64,000 nucleotides of DNA, from contig CAYYWI010000003.1 of assembly GCA_964475375.1 (NCBI GenBank), positions 1,719 to 65,718 of the forward strand. The letters run 5' to 3'. This document shows positions 5,544 to 16,708 of this stretch, in pieces. The position numbers were made by a program, and so were the translations under genes. The first letter of the stretch is position 1. Each line of letters begins with the position of its first letter. The stretch comes from an uncultured Dehalococcoidia bacterium (GTDB lineage Bacteria > Chloroflexota > Dehalococcoidia > UBA2247 > RBG-13-53-26). Below the pieces are notes generated by a model that searched no databases, was not told the origin of the DNA, and worked only from the letters and a program-made list of their open reading frames with translations.

Positions 5544-6500
5544 CTAAGCTTTCTTCCTGAGAACCGTGGCCTTTACCGCTTTCTCGATGTCGGCTGCAGT
5601 CAGACCATAGCGCTTCAGCAGTTCAGCAGGCGTGCCCGACTGGGCGTACATGTCCTTGATGGCCACGAATGAGACAGGCACGGGGTGATGTTGAGCCACC
5701 ACCTGAGCCACCCTCGCCCCCAGCCCGCCGTGCTCCAGGTGCTCCTCCGCGGTCACGATAGCGCCGGTCTCGGTGGCTGCCTTCACAACAGCGTCGGCAT
5801 CCAAAGGCTTGACGGTGGCCATGTTCAGCACCCGGCAATCGATCCCCTGTTTCGCCAGGTTCTCCGCCGCCTCCAGGGCCGGTGCCACCATGATCCCGTT
5901 GGCGATGATAGTGAGATCAGATCCATCTCTCAAGCGCGCCGCTTTGCCCAGAACAAACTGGTACCCGTCCTTGGACACCCGCGGCACCTTCGGCCGTCCC
6001 AGGCGCACGTAGAAAGGACCGGGAGTGGTTGCCACCACTCTGATCGCCTGAGTCGTCTCTTCGGCATCGGCTGGTACAATCACATTGAAACCGGGCAGCG
6101 AGCAGGCCAATGCCACATCCTCGATAGCGTGATGCGAGAGGCCATCCTCACCAACGCTGATGCCGCCATGCGTGGCCACCACCTTCACATCCAGCCGGGG
6201 CTGGGAGACGGACATGCGCAGTTGGTCGAAGCATCGTCCGGTAGCAAAAACGGCAAAGGTGCTGGCAAAGGCGATCTTGCCAGAAGCCGCCAGCCCGGCC
6301 GCAATCCCGATCATGTTCTGCTCCGCAATGCCGCAGTCGAAAAAGCGATTGGGGAACTCCTTGGCAAAGTGAAGGGTCATGGTTGACTTGGAAAGGTCCG
6401 CATCCAGGACAACGATGTTCGGGTTCTCTCGCCCCAAGACGACGAGCGCCTTGCCGTAGGCGTCTCTGGTAGCAGCCGGCGCTTCCTTCACGTTACCCAC
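5544..6500 (-). CDS. transketolase, C-terminal subunit
   Basis: Pyrimidine-binding and C-terminal domains (GIAEQNMIGIAAGLA..., GEDGLSHHAIEDVA). GTG start at 6500 overlaps the upstream stop by 1 nt. Confidence 0.9.
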   Translation of the reverse strand: MGNVKEAPAATRDAYGKALVVLGRENPNIVVLDADLSKSTMTLHFAKEFPNRFFDCGIAEQNMIGIAAGLAASGKIAFASTFAVFATGRCFDQLRMSVSQPRLDVKVVATHGGISVGEDGLSHHAIEDVALACSLPGFNVIVPADAEETTQAIRVVATTPGPFYVRLGRPKVPRVSKDGYQFVLGKAARLRDGSDLTIIANGIMVAPALEAAENLAKQGIDCRVLNMATVKPLDADAVVKAATETGAIVTAEEHLEHGGLGARVAQVVAQHHPVPVSFVAIKDMYAQSGTPAELLKRYGLTAADIEKAVKATVLRKKA

Positions 6501-7474
6501 TACGCCAACTCCCGCAGCGCCCGCTCAGTTTCCTCACGGTTTGGAGCCTTGCCGTGGAAATCCACGTTGTTCTCCATGAAGCTGACGCCCTTGCCTTTGA
6601 CGGTGTGCGCAATGATCATGGTCGGCTGTCCCTTGACACGCTCCGCCTGCTCATAAGCCGCGAGCAATTGAGACAGGTCATGGCCATCGACTTCGATGAT
6701 GTTCCAGCCGAACGCGCGCCACTTGTCGGGCAGCGGTTCGAGATTCATAACGTCCCTGTTCCAACCGTCGATCTGTAATCCGTTGTGATCGACGATGCCA
6801 ACGAGGTTGTCCAGCTTGAAGTGAGCAGCGGCCATAGCCGCTTCCCAGACCTGACCCTCATCGCACTCACCATCGCCCATCAAGACATATACCCGGTAGC
6901 TTTTGGCATCCAGACGCCCAGCCAAGGCAACGCCGACGCCAAAGGACAAACCCTGGCCCAGAGATCCGCACGTGGCTTCCACACCGGGAGTGCAGGTCCT
7001 GTCGGGATGCCCCTGCAAGCGGCTGTCGATCTTCCTCAGAGTGCACAGCTCATCACCAGCGAGGTAGCCCGACTCGGCCAGGACAGCATAGAGAAGCGGT
7101 GCAGCATGGCCCTTGCTCAGGATGAAGCGATCGCGATCCGGCCAATCAGGCTCCGAAGGCCGGTGCCGGAGGACACGGAAGTAGATAGCTGTGACAATCT
7201 CAACAGATGAAAGGGAGCCGCCGGGATGGCCGCTGCCTGCGATGGAAGTCATTTCAATGATGTGGCGGCGCAAAGTCTTGGCCATCGCCTGAAGGTCTTG
7301 GATGCTGACCAGACTCTTACCTGTGGAGGATAACTTCGCAGATGGGCCAACACTGGTTGGCCGAGGGCTGCTGCCGGGGATACTTTGTTCAAACATGGCT
7401 ATGAAAGAAGTCGGACTGTCATTATACATTAGCGCTGAGGCAGAAGGCAATTGCGCCAGCGCTGCCTCCTTCAC
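6500..7474 (-). CDS. transketolase, N-terminal (TPP-binding) subunit
   Basis: MTSIAGSGHPGGSLSSVEI...GDGECDEGQVWEAAMAA TPP-binding motifs. The 5' start is uncertain: GTG at 7474, or internal Met codons at 7396 or 7285. Confidence 0.85.
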   Translation of the reverse strand: MKEAALAQLPSASALMYNDSPTSFIAMFEQSIPGSSPRPTSVGPSAKLSSTGKSLVSIQDLQAMAKTLRRHIIEMTSIAGSGHPGGSLSSVEIVTAIYFRVLRHRPSEPDWPDRDRFILSKGHAAPLLYAVLAESGYLAGDELCTLRKIDSRLQGHPDRTCTPGVEATCGSLGQGLSFGVGVALAGRLDAKSYRVYVLMGDGECDEGQVWEAAMAAAHFKLDNLVGIVDHNGLQIDGWNRDVMNLEPLPDKWRAFGWNIIEVDGHDLSQLLAAYEQAERVKGQPTMIIAHTVKGKGVSFMENNVDFHGKAPNREETERALRELA

Positions 7475-7559: not shown

Positions 7560-9632
7560 ATGCAGAGCTACAGCACTGACCACATACGCAACGTGGTCCT
7601 GCTCTCACACTGTGGAGCAGGTAAGACCTCGCTGTCGGAGGCGATGCTGTTCACGTCTGGGGCCATCCCGCGCCTGGGCCGGGTTGACGACGGCAGCAGC
7701 ACGTCTGACTTTGATCCGGACGAGATCAAGCGCAAGATCAGTATCAACCTTTCCGTACTCCCTTGCGAGTGGGATGGCAATAAGATCAATATTCTGGATG
7801 CTCCCGGCTATGCCGACTTCGTGTCCGGGGCGGTGGCCGGGGTGGCAGTAGCTGATGCGGCAGTGATCGCCATCTGTGCAGCGTCAGGAATCGAAGTGGG
7901 CACCGAGATGATGTGGAAGCTGGCCGATGGCAGGGCACTCTCCCGCATCATTTTCATCAACAAGATGGACAGAGAGAACGCTGATTTCAGCAAGGTGGTG
8001 GAGCAGATCCAGAAGAGGTTTGGCCGACATTGCGTGCCCCTGGCCATGCCCATAGGGGCTCATTCCACCTTTGAGGGTGTTGTGGACCTTCTGGCAATGA
8101 AGGCTTACAAGAAGGAGAAGAAGGAGGAAGCCATCCCAGCTTCGGTTGAGGCTCAGGCCAAGGCTTTAAGGGAGAAGATGGTTGAGGCAGTGGCGGAGAT
8201 GGATGATGAGCTCACCCTCAAGTACCTGGATGGACAGGAGATAGCAGCCGAGGAACTGAGCCGAGTTCTGATTCAGGGAGTGAAGGCAGGGAAGATAGTC
8301 CCCATCCTGACCGGCTCGGCGCTGCAGAACCTGGGCACCAACGGTCTGCTTGATGCGATCTGCAAGCTCCTGCCATCGCCGCAGGAAGTCCCGCCAGCGG
8401 AAGCGACCAACGCCAGCAACCAGGCCGAGTCCCTGAAGGCCGATGAGAACGCCTCTCTGGCTGCTCTGGTGTTCATGACCAGCGCTGATCCGTATGTAGG
8501 CAAAGTGACCCATTTCCGGGTCTACTCCGGCACCATCAGCAGCAACTCCCAGGTGTGGAACAGCACCAAGGCGCAGCTTGAGCGTATCGGTCAGCTCTTC
8601 ATGTTCAAAGGCAAGACCCAGGAGGCTGTTCCCAAGGTTATCGCCGGAGACATCGGCGCGGTGGGCAAGCTGGCGGCAACCGTTACCGGAGACACTCTGT
8701 CAGTCAAAGAGCATGCGGTCAAGTTGCCGTCTATCGTTTTCCCGGAGCCGATATACAGCGTGGCTCTGCATCCCAAGACCAAGACAGACGTGGACAAGCT
8801 GGGCACTGTGCTGCCCAGGCTGGCGGAAGAAGACCCCACCCTCCGCATTCGAAAGGACACGGATACCGCTGAAACCGTGCTGATGGGGATGGGAGACACG
8901 CATGTCGACGTGGTGGCCGAGAGGATGCAGCGCAAGTTCGGCGTGGGGGTCAAGCTGGAAATCCCCAAGGTTCCCTACAGAGAGACCATCACGGCGAAGG
9001 TCGAGGCTGAGCACAAGCACAAGAAGCAGACCGGTGGTCACGGACAATACGGGCATGTTCTGATCCGGGTGGAGCCGCTGCCGCGGGGCACCGGTTTCGA
9101 GTTCGCTGACCAGGTCGTGGGTGGCGCAGTGCCCCGGAACTTCATCCCGGCTGTGGAGAAGGGCGTTATGGAAGCGCGGCATGAGGGCGTCCTGGCCCGT
9201 TACCCGATCGTCGATGTCAGGGTCACTCTGTACGATGGCAGCGCCCACCCCGTGGACTCTTCGGAAATGTCCTTCAAGATTGCCTCATCGATGGCGCTGA
9301 AGAAAGCCCTTTCGCAGGGATTCACCGTCCTGCTCGAACCCATAATGAAACTCAAAGTCATGGTGCCGGAAACCTTCACCGGTGACATCATCTCCGACCT
9401 GAATACCAAGCGTGCCAGAGTGATGGGCATGATCCAGGAGGGCGGCCTGCAGGTAATTGATGCGCAGGCACCTCTGGCGGAAGTGCAGAAATACGCTGTG
9501 GATCTGAGGTCGCTGACTCAGGGCAGGGGCACCTACACCATGGATTTCGATCACTACGAAGAGGTGCCGTCCTTCCAGGCCCAGAAGATCATAGACGCGC
9601 GGGCCGAAGAGAAGGAAAAAGAGAAGGCCTAG
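7560..9632 (+). CDS. elongation factor G-like translational GTPase (divergent EF-G paralog)
   Basis: 690 aa with G domain plus EF-G domains II-V (ILDAPGYADF, GDTL motifs). The G1 motif is atypical: SHCGAGKTS. Confidence 0.85.
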   Translation: MQSYSTDHIRNVVLLSHCGAGKTSLSEAMLFTSGAIPRLGRVDDGSSTSDFDPDEIKRKISINLSVLPCEWDGNKINILDAPGYADFVSGAVAGVAVADAAVIAICAASGIEVGTEMMWKLADGRALSRIIFINKMDRENADFSKVVEQIQKRFGRHCVPLAMPIGAHSTFEGVVDLLAMKAYKKEKKEEAIPASVEAQAKALREKMVEAVAEMDDELTLKYLDGQEIAAEELSRVLIQGVKAGKIVPILTGSALQNLGTNGLLDAICKLLPSPQEVPPAEATNASNQAESLKADENASLAALVFMTSADPYVGKVTHFRVYSGTISSNSQVWNSTKAQLERIGQLFMFKGKTQEAVPKVIAGDIGAVGKLAATVTGDTLSVKEHAVKLPSIVFPEPIYSVALHPKTKTDVDKLGTVLPRLAEEDPTLRIRKDTDTAETVLMGMGDTHVDVVAERMQRKFGVGVKLEIPKVPYRETITAKVEAEHKHKKQTGGHGQYGHVLIRVEPLPRGTGFEFADQVVGGAVPRNFIPAVEKGVMEARHEGVLARYPIVDVRVTLYDGSAHPVDSSEMSFKIASSMALKKALSQGFTVLLEPIMKLKVMVPETFTGDIISDLNTKRARVMGMIQEGGLQVIDAQAPLAEVQKYAVDLRSLTQGRGTYTMDFDHYEEVPSFQAQKIIDARAEEKEKEKA

Positions 9633-9924
9633 TTATTCGGAGGGCGATCGGCATCAAACTGACCGCCCTATTTGTTCAATCGGCACTGCGAGACCCTACC
9701 AGTAGCGCGTTCCGGCCACGAAGGCTTCGGTACCCTGTTTCTTCAGCTTCCGCAGGTTCTTGACGTTGGCCGTGGATCGGCTTCAGAAAGTCCAGCTTCC
9801 GGCAGGTCTTGAACTCATCGCACTCCCAGCAGCCCTTGATGCCCCGCTTGTTGCAGCAGACTTAGGCAGGACTCGTCTTCAACCGCGTACCTTCCTGTCC
9901 CGAGGACAAAACCCGGTCTCCGTA

Positions 9925-9947
9925 GGGGCGAAGCTGGTGCTTCGCCC
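9925..9947. repeat. Family D variant: GGGGCGAAGC-tggt-GCTTCGCCC hairpin
   Basis: Seen in sequence: a 9-bp stem built from the GGGGCGAAGC half-site shared with the other family D copies. Confidence 0.45.
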
Positions 9948-10055
9948 TCGGGAGGCACCATCCTTCGGCCCGGTGGTAACATGGCGTTGTCTCCAGGCTC
10001 TGCCGTTCACCCCCTTCATCCCCCCACTGGGGATGGAGATAAGAGGGGAATCTGA

Positions 10056-10093
10056 GGGACACCCCCAGACCCCCGGCAGCGTTCCGCTGCACC
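10056..10093. repeat. Family B intergenic element, copy 2
   Basis: GGGACACCCCCAGACCCCCGGC followed by hairpin GCAGCG-TTC-CGCTGC then ACCG. The hairpin sequence differs from the other copies but stays complementary. Confidence 0.6.
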
Positions 10094-12418: not shown

Positions 12419-12745
12419 CTACCTGCGCACTGGAGAGGGAGCGAACAGGCCAACCAGAGCGCCCACAGAAGCCGAGCCCAAAGCTACCAATACCTCGGGG
12501 GTAGCTTTGTCTATGGCCACAAGCACAACAGAGCCAATGGCCGCAACCAGCGCCAGGATGCCGAGCACACAGACGGCGATACGGTAGAGCATCAAGTCAT
12601 CGGTCCAGGGCTGGGTATTCTCCTTGGCTTCATCTCGTATCTTCTCAAGCACGGGAATAGGGTCTGCCTTCATCTTGTCCACCAACTCCTTGTCCGCCTT
12701 GAGGAGTCTTACCATTTCATCTGCTGAACGTGTTTCTGGTTTCAT
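12419..12745 (-). CDS. small hypothetical membrane protein
   Basis: Charged N-terminal helix followed by a C-terminal TM segment (IAVCVLGILALVAAIGSVVLVAI). ATG at 12745 preferred over TTG at 12757 because of SD spacing. Confidence 0.5.
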   Translation of the reverse strand: MKPETRSADEMVRLLKADKELVDKMKADPIPVLEKIRDEAKENTQPWTDDLMLYRIAVCVLGILALVAAIGSVVLVAIDKATPEVLVALGSASVGALVGLFAPSPVRR

Positions 12746-12835
12746 TCTTCGGTCCAACCTCTTTCTTTGAATCTTTGCTGATTCTGCTTCCAGAGGACCT
12801 GCACCTTTGTGGCAAAGACATAAGCTTATTCTCGA

Positions 12836-15800
12836 CTAGATGGATTTACCACGACTGCGGTTCTGCAAGAGATCCCAGATATCGGAGGGAATGCCGATGC
12901 GTCGGTGGATAATCATATCACGAAGGAAAGTGGCATCACCCGGAGAGAGATTTATCGTCCAGACTTTCAATTTCTCCTCATTGGAGATCAAGCTCATGCG
13001 GATGCAGTTCAACTTATAGCGGTCATGACGATAGGTGGTGAGCAAGTCGCCAATCTCGTCTGCTGACATCGCCAGCAACCGGGATTGTGGATACTCGGGG
13101 TCCGGTGTCGGAGGTTTGTAGGAATCCCCGTGAATCGACTTCATCAGCGCTTGCCACGATTCTTCGGGCAGATGCAGCCTCGATCTCCGTATAGCCGGCA
13201 CCAGCCCGATGATGTTGTAGGGGGCAATGTTATGCAGACGAGCCTCGAAGGTCGGCAAGTCCAGCCGACCCCAGGTTCTCTCCAGCAAGGTACGGGCATC
13301 TTCTTTGTGATTCATTCGGCAAAGGCACATGAGCAGCACTCCCTGATCGTTCGGTGACGACTCAAACAGCGTGGCGACGAATAGCTCTCGATGCAGTAGA
13401 TCGGCGATCGCATTTTGGAGTTCCTTGTTCAGGCCCGCTCCGCCCAGATAGTCCAGGAAGGTGACCAGGCGGTTTGGCGGCATGCGCGCCAGCCGATCAT
13501 TGAATTCCACCATTGCCAGGAGGCGGCGAACGATGCCTGCACCAGCGAGTTCCCCGTTGCTCGCCTTGATCTGCCTGATGTCCAGATACTTCAGAAAGTT
13601 GACCACCACTTCACCCGCCGGGGAACGTGCCAGTGTTTGTGCGAACTGGTCGAGCGCCAGCAGGTGGTGAACGATGCCCGTGCTGACCAACTCTCCGTTG
13701 TCTGCCTTGATCTGCCTGATGTCCAGATACTTCAGGAAGTTGACCACGGAGAGCAGCGGCGTACGCGCCAGCGCTTGTGTGAACTGGTCGAGCGCCAGCA
13801 GGTGGCGAACGATGCCCGTGCTGATGAACTCTCCATTGTCTGCTTTGATCTGCCTGATATCCAAGTACCTCAGGAAGTTGACCACCTCCCCCGCCGGGGA
13901 ACGTGCCAGTGCTTGTACGAACTGGTCAAGTGCCAGCAGGCGGTGAACGATGCCCGTGCTGACAAGCTCTCCGTTGCCCGCCTTGATCTGCCTGCTGTCC
14001 AGATACTTCAGGAAGTTGGCCACCGCTGCCGCCGGTGAATGCGCCAGCGTCTGCGCGAACTGGTCGAGCGCCAGCAGGTGGTGAACAATGCCTGTGCTGA
14101 CAAGCTCTCCATTGTCCGCCTTGATTTGCTTGCCGTCCAGATACCTCAGGAAGTCCGCCACGTAGTTCGGCGGTACACGTACCAGATTGTTGAGAAGCAC
14201 AATGTAACCCGTGCCTGATTGCAGGGCGCACAGGCGCTGCCAGCTCCAAGGTATATCCCCTCTCTTGAGACTTCTTGCCGTATGGGGCGGCGCATTGCAC
14301 AGCGCGCGCTCCACAAGGCCATCTTCGTTCATCACTGCCTGAGACCATTGATCATGGCTCATCAGCTCGTTGTAGTCACCGGAAGCCAGACGGTAGTTCA
14401 CCAATCCCACCATGAATGGATAGCGTCGGCAGACTGCGAGGACGTGGCTGAGCCACAGACTGCTGAACTGCCGGTCATCAAAGCCACTCTGAGCTTGCAG
14501 TATGAGCTCTCCCAGGCTGGGATGGAACAACCGACAGTAGAGTCTCGGGCTGTTGCCTCGTATAGGAGCCCGCAGCACCGTGCCATTGGCGGTGAACTCG
14601 GGGAGGAGGGTTTCGATGCTCTGGCCCCAGATGGCGTTGTCCTCCGCATCCAGATCCAGGCTGCCAAGAACGCAGAGCTCGGAGAAGCATTTCCTTTGCC
14701 CCGGTGCTCTGTCCGCCGGTATCAGATAGCGCTGCTGCACCATGGACGTGATTGAACTGCGGCTCAGTGTCCCCGGGTTCCTGGGGTCAAAGGCGGTAGC
14801 GAATACCGCCAAGTCCCCACCACACTGTTTGACCCAACGGCGAGCCGAACCCGAGGCCACTTCACGATCTATCCCAAGGCGTTGGGTAAGCCTTCGGGCT
14901 ACGCATCGGAAGGCCTCCTCGGTCGCCCTCAGTTCCGTTATCTTGAGGGACTCCTCGTCGTAGAGACTGTTTCGATCAGTCACTCTGTGTTCGGAAAGAC
15001 GTCCAAGCAGCAACACATGTACCTGCATCCCTTGAGCACGGAGCGCTTGAGTGCGCTTCAGCAGGCGATGTGCCAGTTGCTGGTCGATATGCACATTGTC
15101 AAGGATCAGTAGCAGCGGCTGCTGCGTGGTGCGGACGAACCACTCGATGTCGCTGCGGGCATTTTCGAACGATTGAGCGCCGTGGAGATCGAGTTCCTTC
15201 AGATCCAGGAAGAGGCTCCGGCCATTCATCTCTGCCGCCCATTCAAATGCTACGGCCAAACCAAAGACGGTTTTGCCGCAGCCGCGTGCGCCTCTGACCC
15301 ACACATCGTTTGAAGCTTTGAGCAGAGAGAGCACCTCCTCGCGCTCGGTCTTCGGCAAGTAGACCTTGCGACCGGCAAACTCCTCGTACGAGGGGCTATG
15401 GGCGTTTCTGCCACCCATGCTAGCCCGAACCCAATCGGACAGGTCGGTTAAGATATGCAGTCCCGGCAGCCGTTCAGCGTGTTGGCACTCTCGCAGGAAC
15501 ATGCTCTGATCTTTCTGCTGCCACTCGGTGCCCGTCCATTCACAGACCATGCCGGTGTGGGGTCTGACGGGCAGATTCGGTCCTGCGCTTTTGATCACAT
15601 CCTCCGCTGGAGGCAGTGAGAAACACAGCAGCCATTCCCCTCGAGCAGAAAGCCGGAGGCGTTGAGCATAGTGTCCGAGGGATGGTGCATCTCTCACCAT
15701 TTCCCCGGTGCTTGGATCTTTGAGAACGGAAGCCAAAGTCCTCTCCCAAAGGCCCAATGCCGGGAGTTCGCTCTTGAACGGGCAGGTCACCAGCCAGCTG

Positions 15801-16708
15801 TGCCCGGCCTGCACCGCTTTGCTCTCCACATTGATATGAGCCACATTCGGGCTGACCACCCTCATCGTCTGTGTCTCAACCTGGGCATGGTGATACAGAT
15901 CCACGACAGCGCGCTGGAAGTTGTAATCGAGCGGTTCGTTATTGCATTGAGGGAGCAGTAGATAGTGAATCCCCCCATGCCCGGCTCGGGCATCCTGCAG
16001 CAGGTCGCTGATGAAGAGGCTCTTTCCTCCAGGTTGGGCGATCAGGTCGTAGCAAATGCTGGTCATGACATTGTGATCACCGATCTGGAGCACGTAGGTG
16101 AATCGGCCTTGCAGAAACCTCCCGCGACCCGGCTGTCGCTCCAATGGGTATGGATACCGCTTGGGTTGGAAGAAATACTGACCCGGAGCATCCGGCATGG
16201 CTGGATTGCAGGCCAGCAGGACAGCGACATTGACGAACGCGGTCGATTCCGATGCCGGGGGGACGAGGGCGAAAAGGCGCTGGCAGCCATCCGGTCCGGT
16301 GAGAGACCGATCGCCCGAAGCCAGGTTCTTGTTGTTGGACAGATCATCTCTCAACAGTTTCCTGAAGCGCGAAAAGCGGAGATACTCAACAGGGAGGCAG
16401 ATCAGACATGCTCCGGTTTCTGCAGGACGCGCGCGGACAAGCCCCCAGGCAAGCTCCATCAATTCCGGAAGCGAATCGGCCGGCACTGATATCTCCGGCA
16501 GCACGACTATGTTGGCCCAATGATCACGGATGGCGGTCGTCAATGCCTTGGAAAGCTTCATTGTGTGGGCGGATACGTCAGACAGACAGGATGGAGCACC
16601 GTCAGGTCCTCGCGCCGTCAGTGACACCGCAACCTGGACAGCCGCAACCCTGTGTTCTTCAGAGGGGAAGCTGCAGTTTTCGATTCTAAAGGCCGCAAGG
16701 CTGCTCAT
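12836..16708 (-). CDS. giant multidomain protein: N-terminal C-N hydrolase (nitrilase-superfamily) domain + central STAND/NLR-like P-loop NTPase + C-terminal 43-aa tandem repeats
   Basis: The N-terminal domain carries the nitrilase E-K-C triad pattern (VAAVQVAV; IVVLPEI; QPKRYPYPLE; TSICYDLIAQPG). A Walker A (VWVRGARGCGKTV) and Walker B (LLLILDNVH) follow. Then come 5 near-identical repeats of the form VNFLKYLDIRQIKADNGELVSTGIVHHLLALDQFAQTLARSPAGEV. Confidence 0.8.
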   Translation of the reverse strand: MSSLAAFRIENCSFPSEEHRVAAVQVAVSLTARGPDGAPSCLSDVSAHTMKLSKALTTAIRDHWANIVVLPEISVPADSLPELMELAWGLVRARPAETGACLICLPVEYLRFSRFRKLLRDDLSNNKNLASGDRSLTGPDGCQRLFALVPPASESTAFVNVAVLLACNPAMPDAPGQYFFQPKRYPYPLERQPGRGRFLQGRFTYVLQIGDHNVMTSICYDLIAQPGGKSLFISDLLQDARAGHGGIHYLLLPQCNNEPLDYNFQRAVVDLYHHAQVETQTMRVVSPNVAHINVESKAVQAGHSWLVTCPFKSELPALGLWERTLASVLKDPSTGEMVRDAPSLGHYAQRLRLSARGEWLLCFSLPPAEDVIKSAGPNLPVRPHTGMVCEWTGTEWQQKDQSMFLRECQHAERLPGLHILTDLSDWVRASMGGRNAHSPSYEEFAGRKVYLPKTEREEVLSLLKASNDVWVRGARGCGKTVFGLAVAFEWAAEMNGRSLFLDLKELDLHGAQSFENARSDIEWFVRTTQQPLLLILDNVHIDQQLAHRLLKRTQALRAQGMQVHVLLLGRLSEHRVTDRNSLYDEESLKITELRATEEAFRCVARRLTQRLGIDREVASGSARRWVKQCGGDLAVFATAFDPRNPGTLSRSSITSMVQQRYLIPADRAPGQRKCFSELCVLGSLDLDAEDNAIWGQSIETLLPEFTANGTVLRAPIRGNSPRLYCRLFHPSLGELILQAQSGFDDRQFSSLWLSHVLAVCRRYPFMVGLVNYRLASGDYNELMSHDQWSQAVMNEDGLVERALCNAPPHTARSLKRGDIPWSWQRLCALQSGTGYIVLLNNLVRVPPNYVADFLRYLDGKQIKADNGELVSTGIVHHLLALDQFAQTLAHSPAAAVANFLKYLDSRQIKAGNGELVSTGIVHRLLALDQFVQALARSPAGEVVNFLRYLDIRQIKADNGEFISTGIVRHLLALDQFTQALARTPLLSVVNFLKYLDIRQIKADNGELVSTGIVHHLLALDQFAQTLARSPAGEVVVNFLKYLDIRQIKASNGELAGAGIVRRLLAMVEFNDRLARMPPNRLVTFLDYLGGAGLNKELQNAIADLLHRELFVATLFESSPNDQGVLLMCLCRMNHKEDARTLLERTWGRLDLPTFEARLHNIAPYNIIGLVPAIRRSRLHLPEESWQALMKSIHGDSYKPPTPDPEYPQSRLLAMSADEIGDLLTTYRHDRYKLNCIRMSLISNEEKLKVWTINLSPGDATFLRDMIIHRRIGIPSDIWDLLQNRSRGKSI
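13542..14190. repeat. Five tandem, near-identical 129-bp repeats inside the giant CDS (encode the 43-aa repeats)
   Basis: Period 129 nt; units start about 13542, 13671, 13801, 13930 and 14059. The core GATGCCCGTGCTGAC..CTTGATCTGCCTGATGTCCAGATACTTCAGGAAGTTGACCAC is conserved across units. Confidence 0.85.

What the first reader, a model, noticed from the sequence alone, without database searches (positions are those of the whole stretch)
13542..14190. Five near-identical 129-bp tandem repeats inside the giant gene: potential repeat-number variation in the putative sensor region
At the DNA level the units are ~90% identical with an exact 129-nt (43-codon) period. That suggests recent expansion or ongoing homogenisation by recombination. 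In-frame gain or loss of units would alter the putative sensor region without a frameshift. Repeat-number heterogeneity of this kind is a known mechanism of variation in surface and sensor proteins.
Basis: seen in the sequence. Interest (0 to 1): 0.55.

Follow-up and report, generated by a model that had tools for sequence, protein, structure and literature searches.

The report
Helical repeat array in immune-type sensor
The tandem repeat is real but mis-measured (138-bp units, 63-91% alike, not 129 bp and ~90%); it encodes a stack of helical repeats in the probable sensor end of a rare NLR-like ATPase, and it has changed unit number between distant relatives but not between the two close strains available.

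Summary
The array exists, but the numbers differ. It has five in-frame units of 138, 138, 138, 141 and 138 nt (46-47 codons) at 13469-14161 on the minus strand. A sixth, degenerate 129-nt unit lies at 13340-13468. Pairwise DNA identity is 63-91% (mean 76%).

The array lies in a 1290-aa gene (12836-16708, minus strand). The gene encodes a nitrilase-fold N-terminal domain, a STAND-type P-loop NTPase, this repeat array as a confident three-helix ARM-like solenoid, and a helical C-terminal domain.

Only about nine clusters of this exact family turned up among 5.8 billion proteins. They come from Ca. Argoarchaeum, Chloroflexota and Planctomycetota MAGs and from metagenomes.

Wider relatives keep the NTPase and repeats but swap the N-terminus for TIR, HNH, PNP, SIR2-like or Mrr-like domains. 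That swapping is typical of immune receptors.

Relatives have 41-aa units and 2-9 internal copies, which resemble each other more within a protein than between proteins. All five internal units here share a 5-aa insertion found in no relative, so they descend from one founder unit.

The expansion is not recent. Unit-to-unit dS is 0.2-1.0, against 0.03-0.07 between this gene and a 97.5%-identical syntenic orthologue. That orthologue has the same units one-to-one. This is a new member of a known kind.

The parts
12836..16708 (-). Whole gene: 1290 aa plus stop codon. It encodes a nitrilase-fold domain, a STAND NTPase, a helical repeat array and a helical C-terminal domain.
   Evidence: ORF list and translation. 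An intact syntenic orthologue in L008 has gene-wide dN/dS of 0.19.
15854..16708 (-). N-terminal nitrilase-superfamily (carbon-nitrogen hydrolase) fold, about aa 1-285. Candidate Glu-Lys-Cys triad: E72 (16493-16495), K183 (16160-16162), C219 (16052-16054). Presumed effector.
   Evidence: In the AF2 model, blocks 1-280 mostly have pLDDT 70-93. The top ten Foldseek PDB hits are all nitrilase-superfamily enzymes, E about 1e-6, probability 1.0. E72, K183 and C219 are conserved in every homologue that covers them. There are weak PADLOC hits to an LmuA model and to RT-nitrilase. There is no Pfam CN_hydrolase hit.
15389..15853 (-). Conserved linker region, aa 286-440, of unresolved fold.
   Evidence: The region has many invariant columns in the family alignment, but AF2 pLDDT is mostly below 50.
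14162..15388 (-). STAND-type P-loop NTPase and helical arm, aa 441-849. Walker A is GARGCGKT (aa 473-480, nt 15269-15292). Walker B is LLLILD (D537, nt 15098-15100).
   Evidence: Sub-threshold Pfam hits to AAA_14, nSTAND_NTPase5 and NACHT at aa 469-579. G473, G478, K479, T480, D537 and N538 are invariant in the family. The same core occurs in relatives with TIR, HNH, PNP or NACHT N-termini.
14024..14161 (-). Repeat unit 1 (aa 850-895, 46 aa).
   Evidence: Unit dissection. 99% identical to unit 1 of L008.
13886..14023 (-). Repeat unit 2 (aa 896-941, 46 aa).
   Evidence: Its closest paralogue is unit 4 (90.6% nt identity, dS 0.20).
13748..13885 (-). Repeat unit 3 (aa 942-987, 46 aa).
13607..13747 (-). 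Repeat unit 4 (aa 988-1034, 47 aa). The extra GTG (Val) codon at its 3' junction is absent from the orthologue.
   Evidence: The 3-nt indel falls at aa 1033-1034.
13469..13606 (-). Repeat unit 5 (aa 1035-1080, 46 aa), the most diverged internal unit (63-70% nt identity to the others).
13340..13468 (-). Degenerate sixth 'cap' unit (aa 1081-1123, 43 aa). It lacks the 5-aa insertion, and its nearest relative is the cap unit of another protein.
   Evidence: nearest neighbour is P0002_u7.
12839..13339 (-). C-terminal helical domain (aa 1124-1290) with the family-conserved PDxEYPQ motif (aa 1202-1208).
   Evidence: AF2 pLDDT is about 85-95. P1202, D1203 and Q1208 are invariant. The domain also occurs in relatives with other N-termini: P0016, P0019, P0021, P0024.

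Best explanation
The repeat is the coding sequence of an alpha-solenoid. It consists of five 46-47-residue units plus a degenerate capping unit. Each unit is predicted to form three helices, like an armadillo (ARM) repeat, plus a short loop closed by a beta-bridge.

The solenoid sits in the C-terminal part of a single-gene, NLR-like STAND NTPase whose N-terminus has a nitrilase-superfamily fold.

By analogy with characterised antiviral STAND (Avs) and NLR proteins, the repeat surface would bind a trigger such as a foreign protein. Binding would drive NTP-dependent oligomerisation, which would switch on the N-terminal hydrolase. This step is inferred, not shown.

The array evolves by duplication and loss of whole units, often two at a time, with concerted evolution of the internal units while the cap unit escapes. 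In this lineage, one founder unit that had acquired a 5-residue insertion (within QIKADNGELVSTG) gave rise to all five internal units.

That expansion is old relative to strain divergence. Today the array is a stable domain under purifying selection, not a hypervariable or phase-variable locus.
For: Shown:
- Period and register of the array.
- AF2 model of aa 781-1290: mean pLDDT 90.1, pTM 0.75. Each unit has three helices of 13, about 11 and 9 residues, plus a beta-bridged loop at the insertion. The cap unit has three helices and no such loop.
- Foldseek returns only generic solenoids: designed ARM 4rv1, beta-catenin, SYS-1, APC-ARM, PPR and TPR proteins.
- Walker A and B motifs are invariant, with weak STAND Pfam hits.
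- The N-terminus has a nitrilase fold with conserved E72, K183 and C219.
- A profile of the C-terminal region finds 66 proteins among 1.84 billion. Those inspected (about 33) mostly share a recognisable NTPase core plus repeats but carry TIR/SEFIR, HNH, PNP_UDP or NACHT N-termini. Mrr-like, SIR2-like and trypsin-like N-termini were also read from the sequences. Many of these domains match CBASS, Thoeris or Lamassu effector models in PADLOC.
- Homologues have a 41-aa period and 2-9 internal units.
- For 45 of 55 units the nearest neighbour is in the same protein, against 5.9 expected and a maximum of 18 in 10,000 permutations.
- The 5-aa insertion occurs only in the five internal units.
- Several cap units (those of this protein, P0004 and P0006) have another protein's cap as nearest neighbour; the caps of P0003, P0009 and P0012 are nearest to units of their own protein.
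- A two-unit periodicity appears here (TRF period 276), in P0002 (perfect 246-nt super-units) and in P0005 (alternating pattern).
- Stability: the orthologue L008 has the same units one-to-one; array dS is 0.029 and dN 0.008, against unit-to-unit dS of 0.20-1.0.
- P0005 is identical in three samples.

Background from papers:
- NLRs of fungi and bacteria with internally conserved repeats evolve by repeat reshuffling (PMC4986451; bioRxiv 10.1101/2020.01.06.895854).
- Avs sensors are mostly alpha-helical repeats (PMC13581612).
- A nitrilase domain serves as the effector in the DRT1 defence system (PMC13275509).
Against: - No experiment or binding partner links the repeats to sensing.
- The gene's neighbours in the window are housekeeping genes (split transketolase, an EF-G-like GTPase, ETF alpha and beta, AroH, DAHP synthase, RibF, TyrRS, SerA). 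This is not a defence island, and the gene's GC content equals that of its flanks.
- All STAND Pfam hits are below their gathering cut-offs, and PADLOC has no model for the core.
- The nitrilase assignment rests on a model with mean pLDDT of only 64.6 and has no Pfam CN_hydrolase hit.
- No sign of diversifying selection was found, but with five units and two alleles the power is low.
- The stability claim rests on one close relative.
Confidence: 0.7

Rival explanations
1. One reading: an actively variable locus in which recombination among near-identical units currently generates repeat-number heterogeneity within the population, tuning sensor specificity as in fungal nwd-type NLRs or surface-protein contingency loci.
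For: - The period is in frame.
- Unit number varies between 2 and 9 across the family.
- Units in the Argoarchaeum homologue are 100% identical.
- The Planctomycetota MAG contig ends inside the array, which is typical of unresolved repeats.
- One codon-sized indel lies at a unit junction between the two strains.
- Some exact tracts of 25-32 nt are shared between units.
Against: - The 97.5%-identical orthologue has the same number and order of units, with one-to-one orthology.
- Unit-to-unit dS of 0.2-1.0 is far larger than the between-strain dS of 0.03-0.07.
- The array is no more polymorphic than the rest of the gene.
- Pairwise dN/dS is 0.18-0.44.
- Mean amino-acid identity of the units is 71%, below the 85% criterion used for 'high internal conservation' (PMC4986451).
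Confidence: 0.1
2. A non-immune STAND signalling or metabolic-regulatory protein. The helical repeats would act as a protein-protein or small-molecule-binding scaffold controlling a genuine metabolic amidase or nitrilase, fixed in a housekeeping neighbourhood.
For: - Neighbours are housekeeping genes, conserved in synteny in both strains.
- GC content equals that of the flanks.
- Purifying selection acts over the whole gene.
- Non-defence STAND clades are interspersed with defence clades (PMC13581612, section 5).
- In Argoarchaeum the gene also sits among housekeeping genes.
Against: - The same core plus repeats is fused in relatives to TIR, HNH, PNP, SIR2-like, Mrr-like and protease-like domains that match known defence effectors.
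- The distribution is extremely sparse and scattered across Archaea, Chloroflexota and Planctomycetota.
- Two homologues lie next to defence-like genes: a DUF4011/AAA_11/AAA_12 helicase, and a PHP-plus-SMC-like ATPase.
- The protein has no DNA-binding or other regulatory output domain.
Confidence: 0.15
3. An assembly artefact: collapsed, expanded or chimeric repeats produced by short-read assembly.
For: The source is evidently a metagenome-type assembly. Repeats break assemblies elsewhere in the family: the L010 contig ends inside the array.
Against: - The units differ by 9-37% at the DNA level, so they are individually resolvable.
- An independent assembly (ENA ERZ25038436, L008) gives the same six units in the same order.
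- The reading frame is intact through the array in both assemblies.
Confidence: 0.02

Closest known systems
NLR-like STAND proteins with internally conserved superstructure-forming repeats (fungal nwd/HET-E/HET-D type; also reported for bacterial NB-ARC/TPR and NACHT/WD proteins)
   Same: - Both have a tripartite effector-NTPase-repeat layout.
- Repeat units are about 40 aa and are more similar within a protein than between orthologues.
- Unit number differs between relatives.
- N-terminal domains are shuffled, including PNP_UDP and TIR (PMC4986451; bioRxiv 10.1101/2020.01.06.895854).
   Different: - The units here are only 52-87% identical at the protein level (mean 71%), not 85% or more.
- No repeat-number polymorphism was found between the two strains available.
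- No positive selection was detected.
- The repeat is not a WD, ANK or TPR repeat by Pfam. It is an unmodelled three-helix unit.
- The effector has a nitrilase fold.
Antiviral STAND (Avs/AVAST) and bNACHT defence proteins
   Same: Both are single-polypeptide STAND NTPases with an N-terminal effector and a C-terminal alpha-helical repeat sensor. Relatives carry typical defence effectors (PMC13581612).
   Different: - There is no significant match to any Avs, NLR or other STAND-core model in PADLOC 2.0; the only hit over the NTPase region is a weak one to the candidate model PDC-S01 (E 0.0023).
- STAND Pfam hits are below threshold.
- The gene is not in a defence island here.
- A nitrilase-fold effector on an Avs or NLR protein was not found in the papers searched.
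- Defence activity is untested.
Armadillo (ARM) and HEAT alpha-solenoid repeats
   Same: The family unit is about 41-42 residues. The model predicts three helices per unit stacked into a superhelix. Beta-catenin, SYS-1, APC-ARM and a designed ARM protein are among the Foldseek hits.
   Different: - There is no Pfam Arm or HEAT hit.
- TM-scores are only 0.1-0.28, and TPR and PPR proteins score similarly.
- The five internal units carry a 5-aa insertion forming a beta-bridged loop that is not part of the ARM consensus.
Nitrilase-domain defence effectors (DRT1 and other class 3 UG/Abi reverse transcriptase-nitrilase fusions; an LmuA model in PADLOC)
   Same: Both have a nitrilase-superfamily fold with a Glu-Lys-Cys triad placed in the effector position of a presumed immune protein. 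There are weak PADLOC hits to LmuA (E 1.3e-8) and RT-nitrilase (PMC13275509).
   Different: The domain here is fused to a STAND NTPase and repeats, not to a reverse transcriptase or an SMC-like partner. Sequence similarity is marginal. The substrate is unknown in both cases.

Membership tests
STAND (NLR-like) P-loop NTPases | Walker A (GxxxxGK[ST]) and Walker B (hhhhD) motifs in a central NTPase domain | tested here: met
   GARGCGKT at aa 473-480 and LLLILD ending at D537. G473, G478, K479, T480 and D537 are invariant in nine homologues.
STAND (NLR-like) P-loop NTPases | Match to a curated STAND family model above its threshold | tested here: not met
   AAA_14 scores 21.4 bits (cut-off 27), nSTAND_NTPase5 19.9 (34), NACHT 13.4 (26.7). 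Relatives give similarly weak nSTAND3, nSTAND5 and NACHT hits.
STAND (NLR-like) P-loop NTPases | Tripartite architecture (N-terminal effector or adaptor, NTPase, C-terminal repeats) with modular N-terminal swapping among relatives | tested here: met
Nitrilase (carbon-nitrogen hydrolase) superfamily | The alpha-beta-beta-alpha sandwich fold of the superfamily | tested here: met
   The top ten Foldseek PDB hits are all members of the superfamily (AmiF 5g3p/5g3o, CPA 5h8l/5h8j/5h8k, CJ1056C 9wpo, NadE glutaminase domain 4f4h). E is 9e-7 to 6e-6, probability 1.0, target-normalised TM 0.29-0.57 (0.44-0.57 for nine of the ten; 0.29 is the 540-residue NadE chain). Caveat: mean model pLDDT is 64.6, with good confidence only for aa 1-280.
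Nitrilase (carbon-nitrogen hydrolase) superfamily | Catalytic Glu-Lys-Cys triad | tested here: inconclusive
   E72 (VLPEIS), K183 (QPKRYP) and C219 (SICYD) occur in the expected order and are conserved in every homologue covering them. Their equivalence to the catalytic residues was inferred from motifs, not from a residue-level structural superposition.
Nitrilase (carbon-nitrogen hydrolase) superfamily | Sequence match to the Pfam CN_hydrolase model | tested here: not met
   No such hit at E up to 1. The profile search against PDB sequences also found nothing.
Armadillo-type repeats | Units of about 42 residues with three helices, stacked into a right-handed superhelix | tested here: inconclusive
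   AF2 predicts three helices per unit at pLDDT of about 90, and the family period is 41 aa. However, there is no Pfam Arm hit, and Foldseek does not distinguish ARM from TPR or PPR solenoids (TM 0.28 or less).
NLRs with 'high internal repeat conservation' (criterion of Dyrka et al. 2014, PMC4986451) | Units more than 85% identical over at least 100 aa | tested here: not met
   Amino-acid identity between the internal units is 52-87%, mean 71%. The criterion is met in some relatives: P0002, P0040, P0060.
NLRs with 'high internal repeat conservation' (criterion of Dyrka et al. 2014, PMC4986451) | Repeat-number polymorphism between strains | tested here: not met
   Both available strains have the same 5+1 units. 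P0005 is identical in three samples. The sample is very small.
NLRs with 'high internal repeat conservation' (criterion of Dyrka et al. 2014, PMC4986451) | Positive selection at surface positions of the units | tested here: inconclusive
   Pairwise dN/dS between units is 0.18-0.44. Between strains it is 0.26 in the array. No site-wise test is possible with five units and two alleles.
Avs / defence-associated STAND | Defence-island context or a defence-type effector | tested here: inconclusive
   The window and Argoarchaeum loci have housekeeping neighbours. Two homologues neighbour helicase or PHP-SMC-like genes. Relatives carry TIR, HNH, PNP or SIR2-like effectors.
Avs / defence-associated STAND | Protection against phage, or trigger-dependent toxicity | not testable with these tools
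   This requires experiments.
Contingency (phase-variable) repeat loci | Highly identical units whose number changes at high frequency and alters or interrupts the product | tested here: not met
   Units are 138 nt long and 63-91% identical. The longest exact shared tracts are 10-32 nt. Unit number does not differ between the strains.

The most novel reading that the evidence does not exclude
The gene may represent an undescribed family of archaeal and bacterial NLR-like immune receptors. Its output would be a nitrilase-type hydrolase acting on an essential amide- or nitrile-bearing metabolite. Its sensor would be a previously unmodelled 41-residue three-helix repeat. In this lineage a 5-residue beta-bridged loop swept through every internal unit, rebuilding the whole ligand-binding surface in one evolutionary step and so switching specificity by concerted evolution.
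Probability: 0.25. Interest if true: 0.6.

Novelty: new member of a known kind. Interest (0 to 1): 0.35.

Why it matters
Internally similar repeat arrays in the sensor ends of NLR-like proteins are one recognised way in which immune receptors change specificity.

This case gives a clean natural example of how such an array is rebuilt. A single modified unit replaced all internal units while the capping unit kept the ancestral form.

It also shows that such an array can then stay stable for a long time. That is a caution against reading every tandem repeat as a currently variable locus.

The host gene is of some interest in its own right. It belongs to a very rare STAND family found in an ethane-oxidising archaeon MAG, in Chloroflexota and Planctomycetota MAGs and in metagenomes. 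It is not covered by Pfam or PADLOC models. It carries a nitrilase-fold effector, a domain whose role and substrate in defence are still open (DRT1; PMC13275509).

Tried and rejected
- **Unit-profile search.** The search for homologous proteins with a 51-unit profile returned nothing.
- **Array-region search.** The same tool with the array region of this protein also returned nothing, not even the protein itself. The tool appears blind to this repetitive query. Both searches are uninformative, and I could not fish for fragmentary alleles with other unit numbers.
- **PDB sequence searches.** Profiles of the full-length family and of the N-terminal region found no meaningful hits.
- **Viral contigs.** No relative was found, so there is no evidence that the gene is phage-borne.
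- **Rfam and tRNA scans of the window.** Both were empty, so no RNA feature explains the repeat.
- **Antisense ORFs in the array.** The ORFs at 13415-14038 (+) and 13926-14348 (-, off frame) are by-products of the repeat and not genes. The long minus-strand frame has homologues and a dN/dS of 0.19.
- **Recent horizontal transfer.** GC content is flat across the gene and its flanks.
- **Conserved partner gene.** The small membrane ORF downstream (12419-12757) also has a counterpart ORF of similar size and position in the close strain, but not at other family loci.
- **Organism of origin.** It could not be identified. The look-up of encoding contigs had no record of the exact protein, and the genome scan found only other lineages.
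- **Supplements of PMC13581612.** They are not held, so I could not check whether this clade is among its 589 STAND clades.
Full report
**1. Observation**

Tandem Repeats Finder reports one array at 13562-14154 with periods of 138 nt (4.3 copies, 82% matches) and 276 nt (2.1 copies, 84%). It does not report 129 nt. An ungapped repeat search gives start-to-start spacings of 141, 138, 138, 138.

The array lies in the only long ORF of the region, 12836-16708 on the minus strand, 1290 aa. In the protein register there are five units:
- aa 850-895
- aa 896-941
- aa 942-987
- aa 988-1034
- aa 1035-1080

These are 46, 46, 46, 47 and 46 residues long and span window 13469-14161. A degenerate sixth unit follows at aa 1081-1123 (13340-13468).

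Pairwise DNA identity is 63-91%. The mean is 76% for all five units and 82% for the first four. Only U2-U4 reaches 90.6%.

So the array is real and in frame, but the stated period, identity and borders are wrong.

**2. Selection and age of the units**

Nei-Gojobori estimates between units give dS of 0.20 (U2-U4) up to about 1.0 (pairs with U5). dN/dS is 0.18-0.44. The units are therefore under purifying selection and are not young.

The longest exact tracts shared by any two units are 10-32 nt. From general knowledge of RecA-dependent recombination, efficient exchange needs roughly 20-30 nt of exact identity. The array therefore offers only marginal substrate for unequal exchange.

**3. Comparison with a close strain**

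The 90% cluster of the protein holds one other member, P0010, from an ENA assembly. Its contig, L008, is syntenic with the window. Both carry chorismate mutase, DAHP synthase and FAD synthetase on one side, and ETF and an EF-G-like gene on the other.

The two genes are 97.5% identical, with 97 mismatches. The unit-by-unit matrix is strictly diagonal:
- 0.96-1.00 for orthologous units
- 0.33-0.91 for non-orthologous units

Unit number and order are the same. The only indel in the whole gene is one GTG codon at the U4/U5 junction.

Between the strains, dS is 0.067 and dN 0.013 for the gene. For the array, dS is 0.029 and dN 0.008. The array is thus no more variable than the rest.

The youngest unit duplication (dS 0.20) clearly predates the split of the strains, and no homogenisation has occurred since.

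A second, weaker stability datum comes from homologue P0005. It is encoded identically on contigs from three samples.

**4. The family**

A search of 5.8 billion clustered proteins found only nine clusters. Apart from the query's own cluster, these are:
- a Ca. Argoarchaeum ethanivorans MAG (45% identity)
- a Chloroflexota MAG
- six metagenome proteins

A scan of 185,579 species genomes found three loci: Chloroflexota, Planctomycetota and Argoarchaeum. The Planctomycetota contig ends inside the array. Metagenome contigs gave three loci. Viral contigs gave none.

Every homologue has the same FLKYLD...LARTP repeat, but with a 41-residue period. Internal unit numbers are 2, 2, 4, 5, 5, 6, 7 and 9, plus a cap unit in each.

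Units resemble each other more within a protein than between proteins:
- Mean identity is 0.35-0.78 within a protein, against 0.27-0.45 between proteins.
- For 45 of 55 units the nearest neighbour is in the same protein.
- The permuted mean is 5.9, with a maximum of 18 in 10,000 permutations.

Several cap units, including this protein's, have another protein's cap as their nearest neighbour, as expected if the array edges escape homogenisation.

At the DNA level the arrays span a wide range. In Argoarchaeum, 246-nt two-unit blocks are 100% identical. In the outer units of P0006, identity is about 60%.

A two-unit periodicity recurs in this gene (TRF period 276), in P0002 and in P0005.

**5. 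The founder unit**

All five internal units of the window protein, and of P0010, carry the same 5-residue insertion in the first inter-helix loop (within QIKADNGELVSTG). The insertion is absent from the protein's own cap unit and from all 49 units of the other homologues.

The simplest reading is that one unit acquired the insertion and then replaced, or gave rise to, all internal units in this lineage. Sections 2 and 3 show that it is not recent.

**6. Structure**

AlphaFold2 on aa 781-1290 with an eight-sequence alignment gave mean pLDDT 90.1 and pTM 0.75. Each internal unit has these elements:
- a 13-residue helix (previous unit's tail plus VxNFLKYLD)
- a loop closed by a single beta-bridge (K14-L20 of the unit, at the insertion)
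- an 11-residue helix
- a 9-residue helix

The cap unit has three helices and a short loop instead. This is an ARM-like three-helix repeat.

Foldseek against the PDB returns only generic solenoids with TM of 0.28 or less. They include the designed armadillo protein 4rv1, beta-catenin, SYS-1, APC-ARM, and PPR and TPR proteins. Pfam has no match to the repeat.

Among the five units, the invariant residues are the FLxYLD core, most of the inserted loop, GIV, LLA, F35, LA and P43. Variable residues cluster at helix ends and in the inter-unit linker.

**7. The rest of the protein**

- **NTPase.** Residues 469-579 give sub-threshold hits to AAA_14, nSTAND_NTPase5 and NACHT. Walker A (GARGCGKT) and Walker B (D537) are invariant.
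- **N-terminal domain.** AF2 gives mean pLDDT 64.6, with good confidence for aa 1-280. Its top ten Foldseek hits are all nitrilase-superfamily enzymes, with E about 1e-6 and probability 1.0. E72, K183 and C219 are conserved in every homologue that covers them.
- **PADLOC.** There is a weak LmuA match (E 1.3e-8, aa 159-310) and a marginal RT-nitrilase match.
- **Pfam.** There is no CN_hydrolase hit.

**8. Wider relatives and function**

An exhaustive hmmsearch with the C-terminal profile against 1.84 billion representatives found 66 proteins with E of 1e-3 or better, 23 of them at 1e-30 or better.

Most of the roughly 33 I inspected share a recognisable NTPase core (motifs such as SGKTVFG, LVLDNxH, GGDLxxF, LFHPSL) plus helical repeats with periods of 36-47 aa. 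They differ at the N-terminus:
- HNH_2
- TIR_2 / SEFIR
- PNP_UDP_1
- an extra NACHT domain
- Mrr-like, SIR2-like and trypsin-like domains (read from the sequences)
- transmembrane or coiled-coil regions (read from the sequences)

In PADLOC these N-termini match CBASS, Thoeris or Lamassu-type effector models, while the core and repeats match nothing. About a quarter have strongly self-similar repeats, with identity at the best period of 0.6 or more in a 160-aa window, up to 0.97.

Effector swapping on a constant NTPase-plus-repeat chassis is the signature of NLR-like immune receptors. Published work gives the background:
- Avs sensors are mostly alpha-helical repeats (PMC13581612).
- Fungal and bacterial NLRs with internally conserved repeats diversify by repeat reshuffling (PMC4986451; bioRxiv 10.1101/2020.01.06.895854).
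- A nitrilase domain serves as an antiphage effector of unknown substrate in DRT1 (PMC13275509).

I therefore infer, but have not shown, the following sequence. The array is the ligand-binding sensor. Ligand binding licenses NTP-dependent oligomerisation. Oligomerisation activates the nitrilase-fold domain.

**9. Against the immune reading**

- The window neighbourhood is housekeeping, not a defence island. The same holds in Argoarchaeum.
- GC content matches the flanks.
- Only two homologues sit beside defence-like genes.
- A non-immune regulatory STAND remains possible (about 0.15).

**10. Verdict**

The array is real, but the period, identity and borders given were wrong.

The array is a probable sensor module whose units arose from one founder, and unit number changes in frame over the history of the family. 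In this lineage, however, it is old, under purifying selection, and identical in arrangement in the only close relative available.

It is a new member of a known kind. Interest is modest. It comes mainly from the clean founder-unit signature and from the rare nitrilase-STAND host gene.

Noticed in passing
L001 12570-13500 approx. (P0002 aa 858-1150, Ca. Argoarchaeum ethanivorans): Units 1, 3 and 5 are 100% identical in DNA, as are units 2 and 4. This gives a perfect 246-nt two-unit block repeated about 2.5 times. It reflects either a very recent expansion or a copy number that a short-read MAG assembly cannot fix.
   Followed up: partly
L010 (Planctomycetota MAG JAHIKV010000382.1), locus end at 8679: The contig stops inside the repeat array; the match covers query residues 2-906 only. 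This suggests that highly similar units broke the assembly there.
   Followed up: no
L013 355-3589 (metagenome contig Ga0209013_10019418): tblastn finds a relative covering query residues 13-1281, but no ORF of 300 aa or more exists on that strand. It is probably a degraded or frameshifted copy of the gene.
   Followed up: partly
window 12419-12757 (-): A 112-aa ORF with two hydrophobic stretches that look like transmembrane helices (judged by eye; not tested) lies immediately downstream of the gene. A 108-aa ORF of similar size and position is called in the close strain (L008 7609-7935; its sequence was not compared), but no such ORF is seen next to other family members.
   Followed up: partly
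window 9859-10087 versus L008 10268-12735: The close strain carries about 2.4 kb (an AlkZ-like gene and a DUF3795 gene) that is absent from the window between the EF-G-like and ETF genes. This is an insertion or deletion difference between the strains.
   Followed up: no
window 13415-14038 (+) and 13926-14348 (-): ORFs of 207 aa (antisense) and 140 aa (off-frame) run through the array and are themselves repetitive. They are by-products of the repeat, not genes.
   Followed up: yes
window 13469-14161; L003 (P0005); L001 (P0002): Three lineages show a two-unit super-period: TRF period 276 here, alternating A/B units in P0005, and 246-nt blocks in P0002. This hints that units are duplicated in pairs.
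   Followed up: partly
L003/L004 1-4339 (-) and L007 1517-4168 (+): Two family members sit beside defence-like genes. One is a DUF4011/AAA_11/AAA_12/DUF3320 helicase of more than 1800 aa. The other is a PHP domain plus SMC-like ATPase (AAA_23/AAA_21), followed by a TPR protein.
   Followed up: no
P0040, P0060, P0061, P0058, P0047 (wider relatives): These are other STAND proteins with Mrr-like or protease-like N-termini. They carry 6-22 almost identical helical units of 37-44 aa (identity up to 0.97). They would be better candidates than this window for currently variable repeat arrays.
   Followed up: partly
window 5544-7474 (-): Transketolase is encoded as two adjacent ORFs, N-terminal and C-terminal halves whose coordinates share one base (5544-6500 and 6500-7474). 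This split arrangement is seen in some anaerobes and archaea. The organism of origin could not be identified.
   Followed up: no
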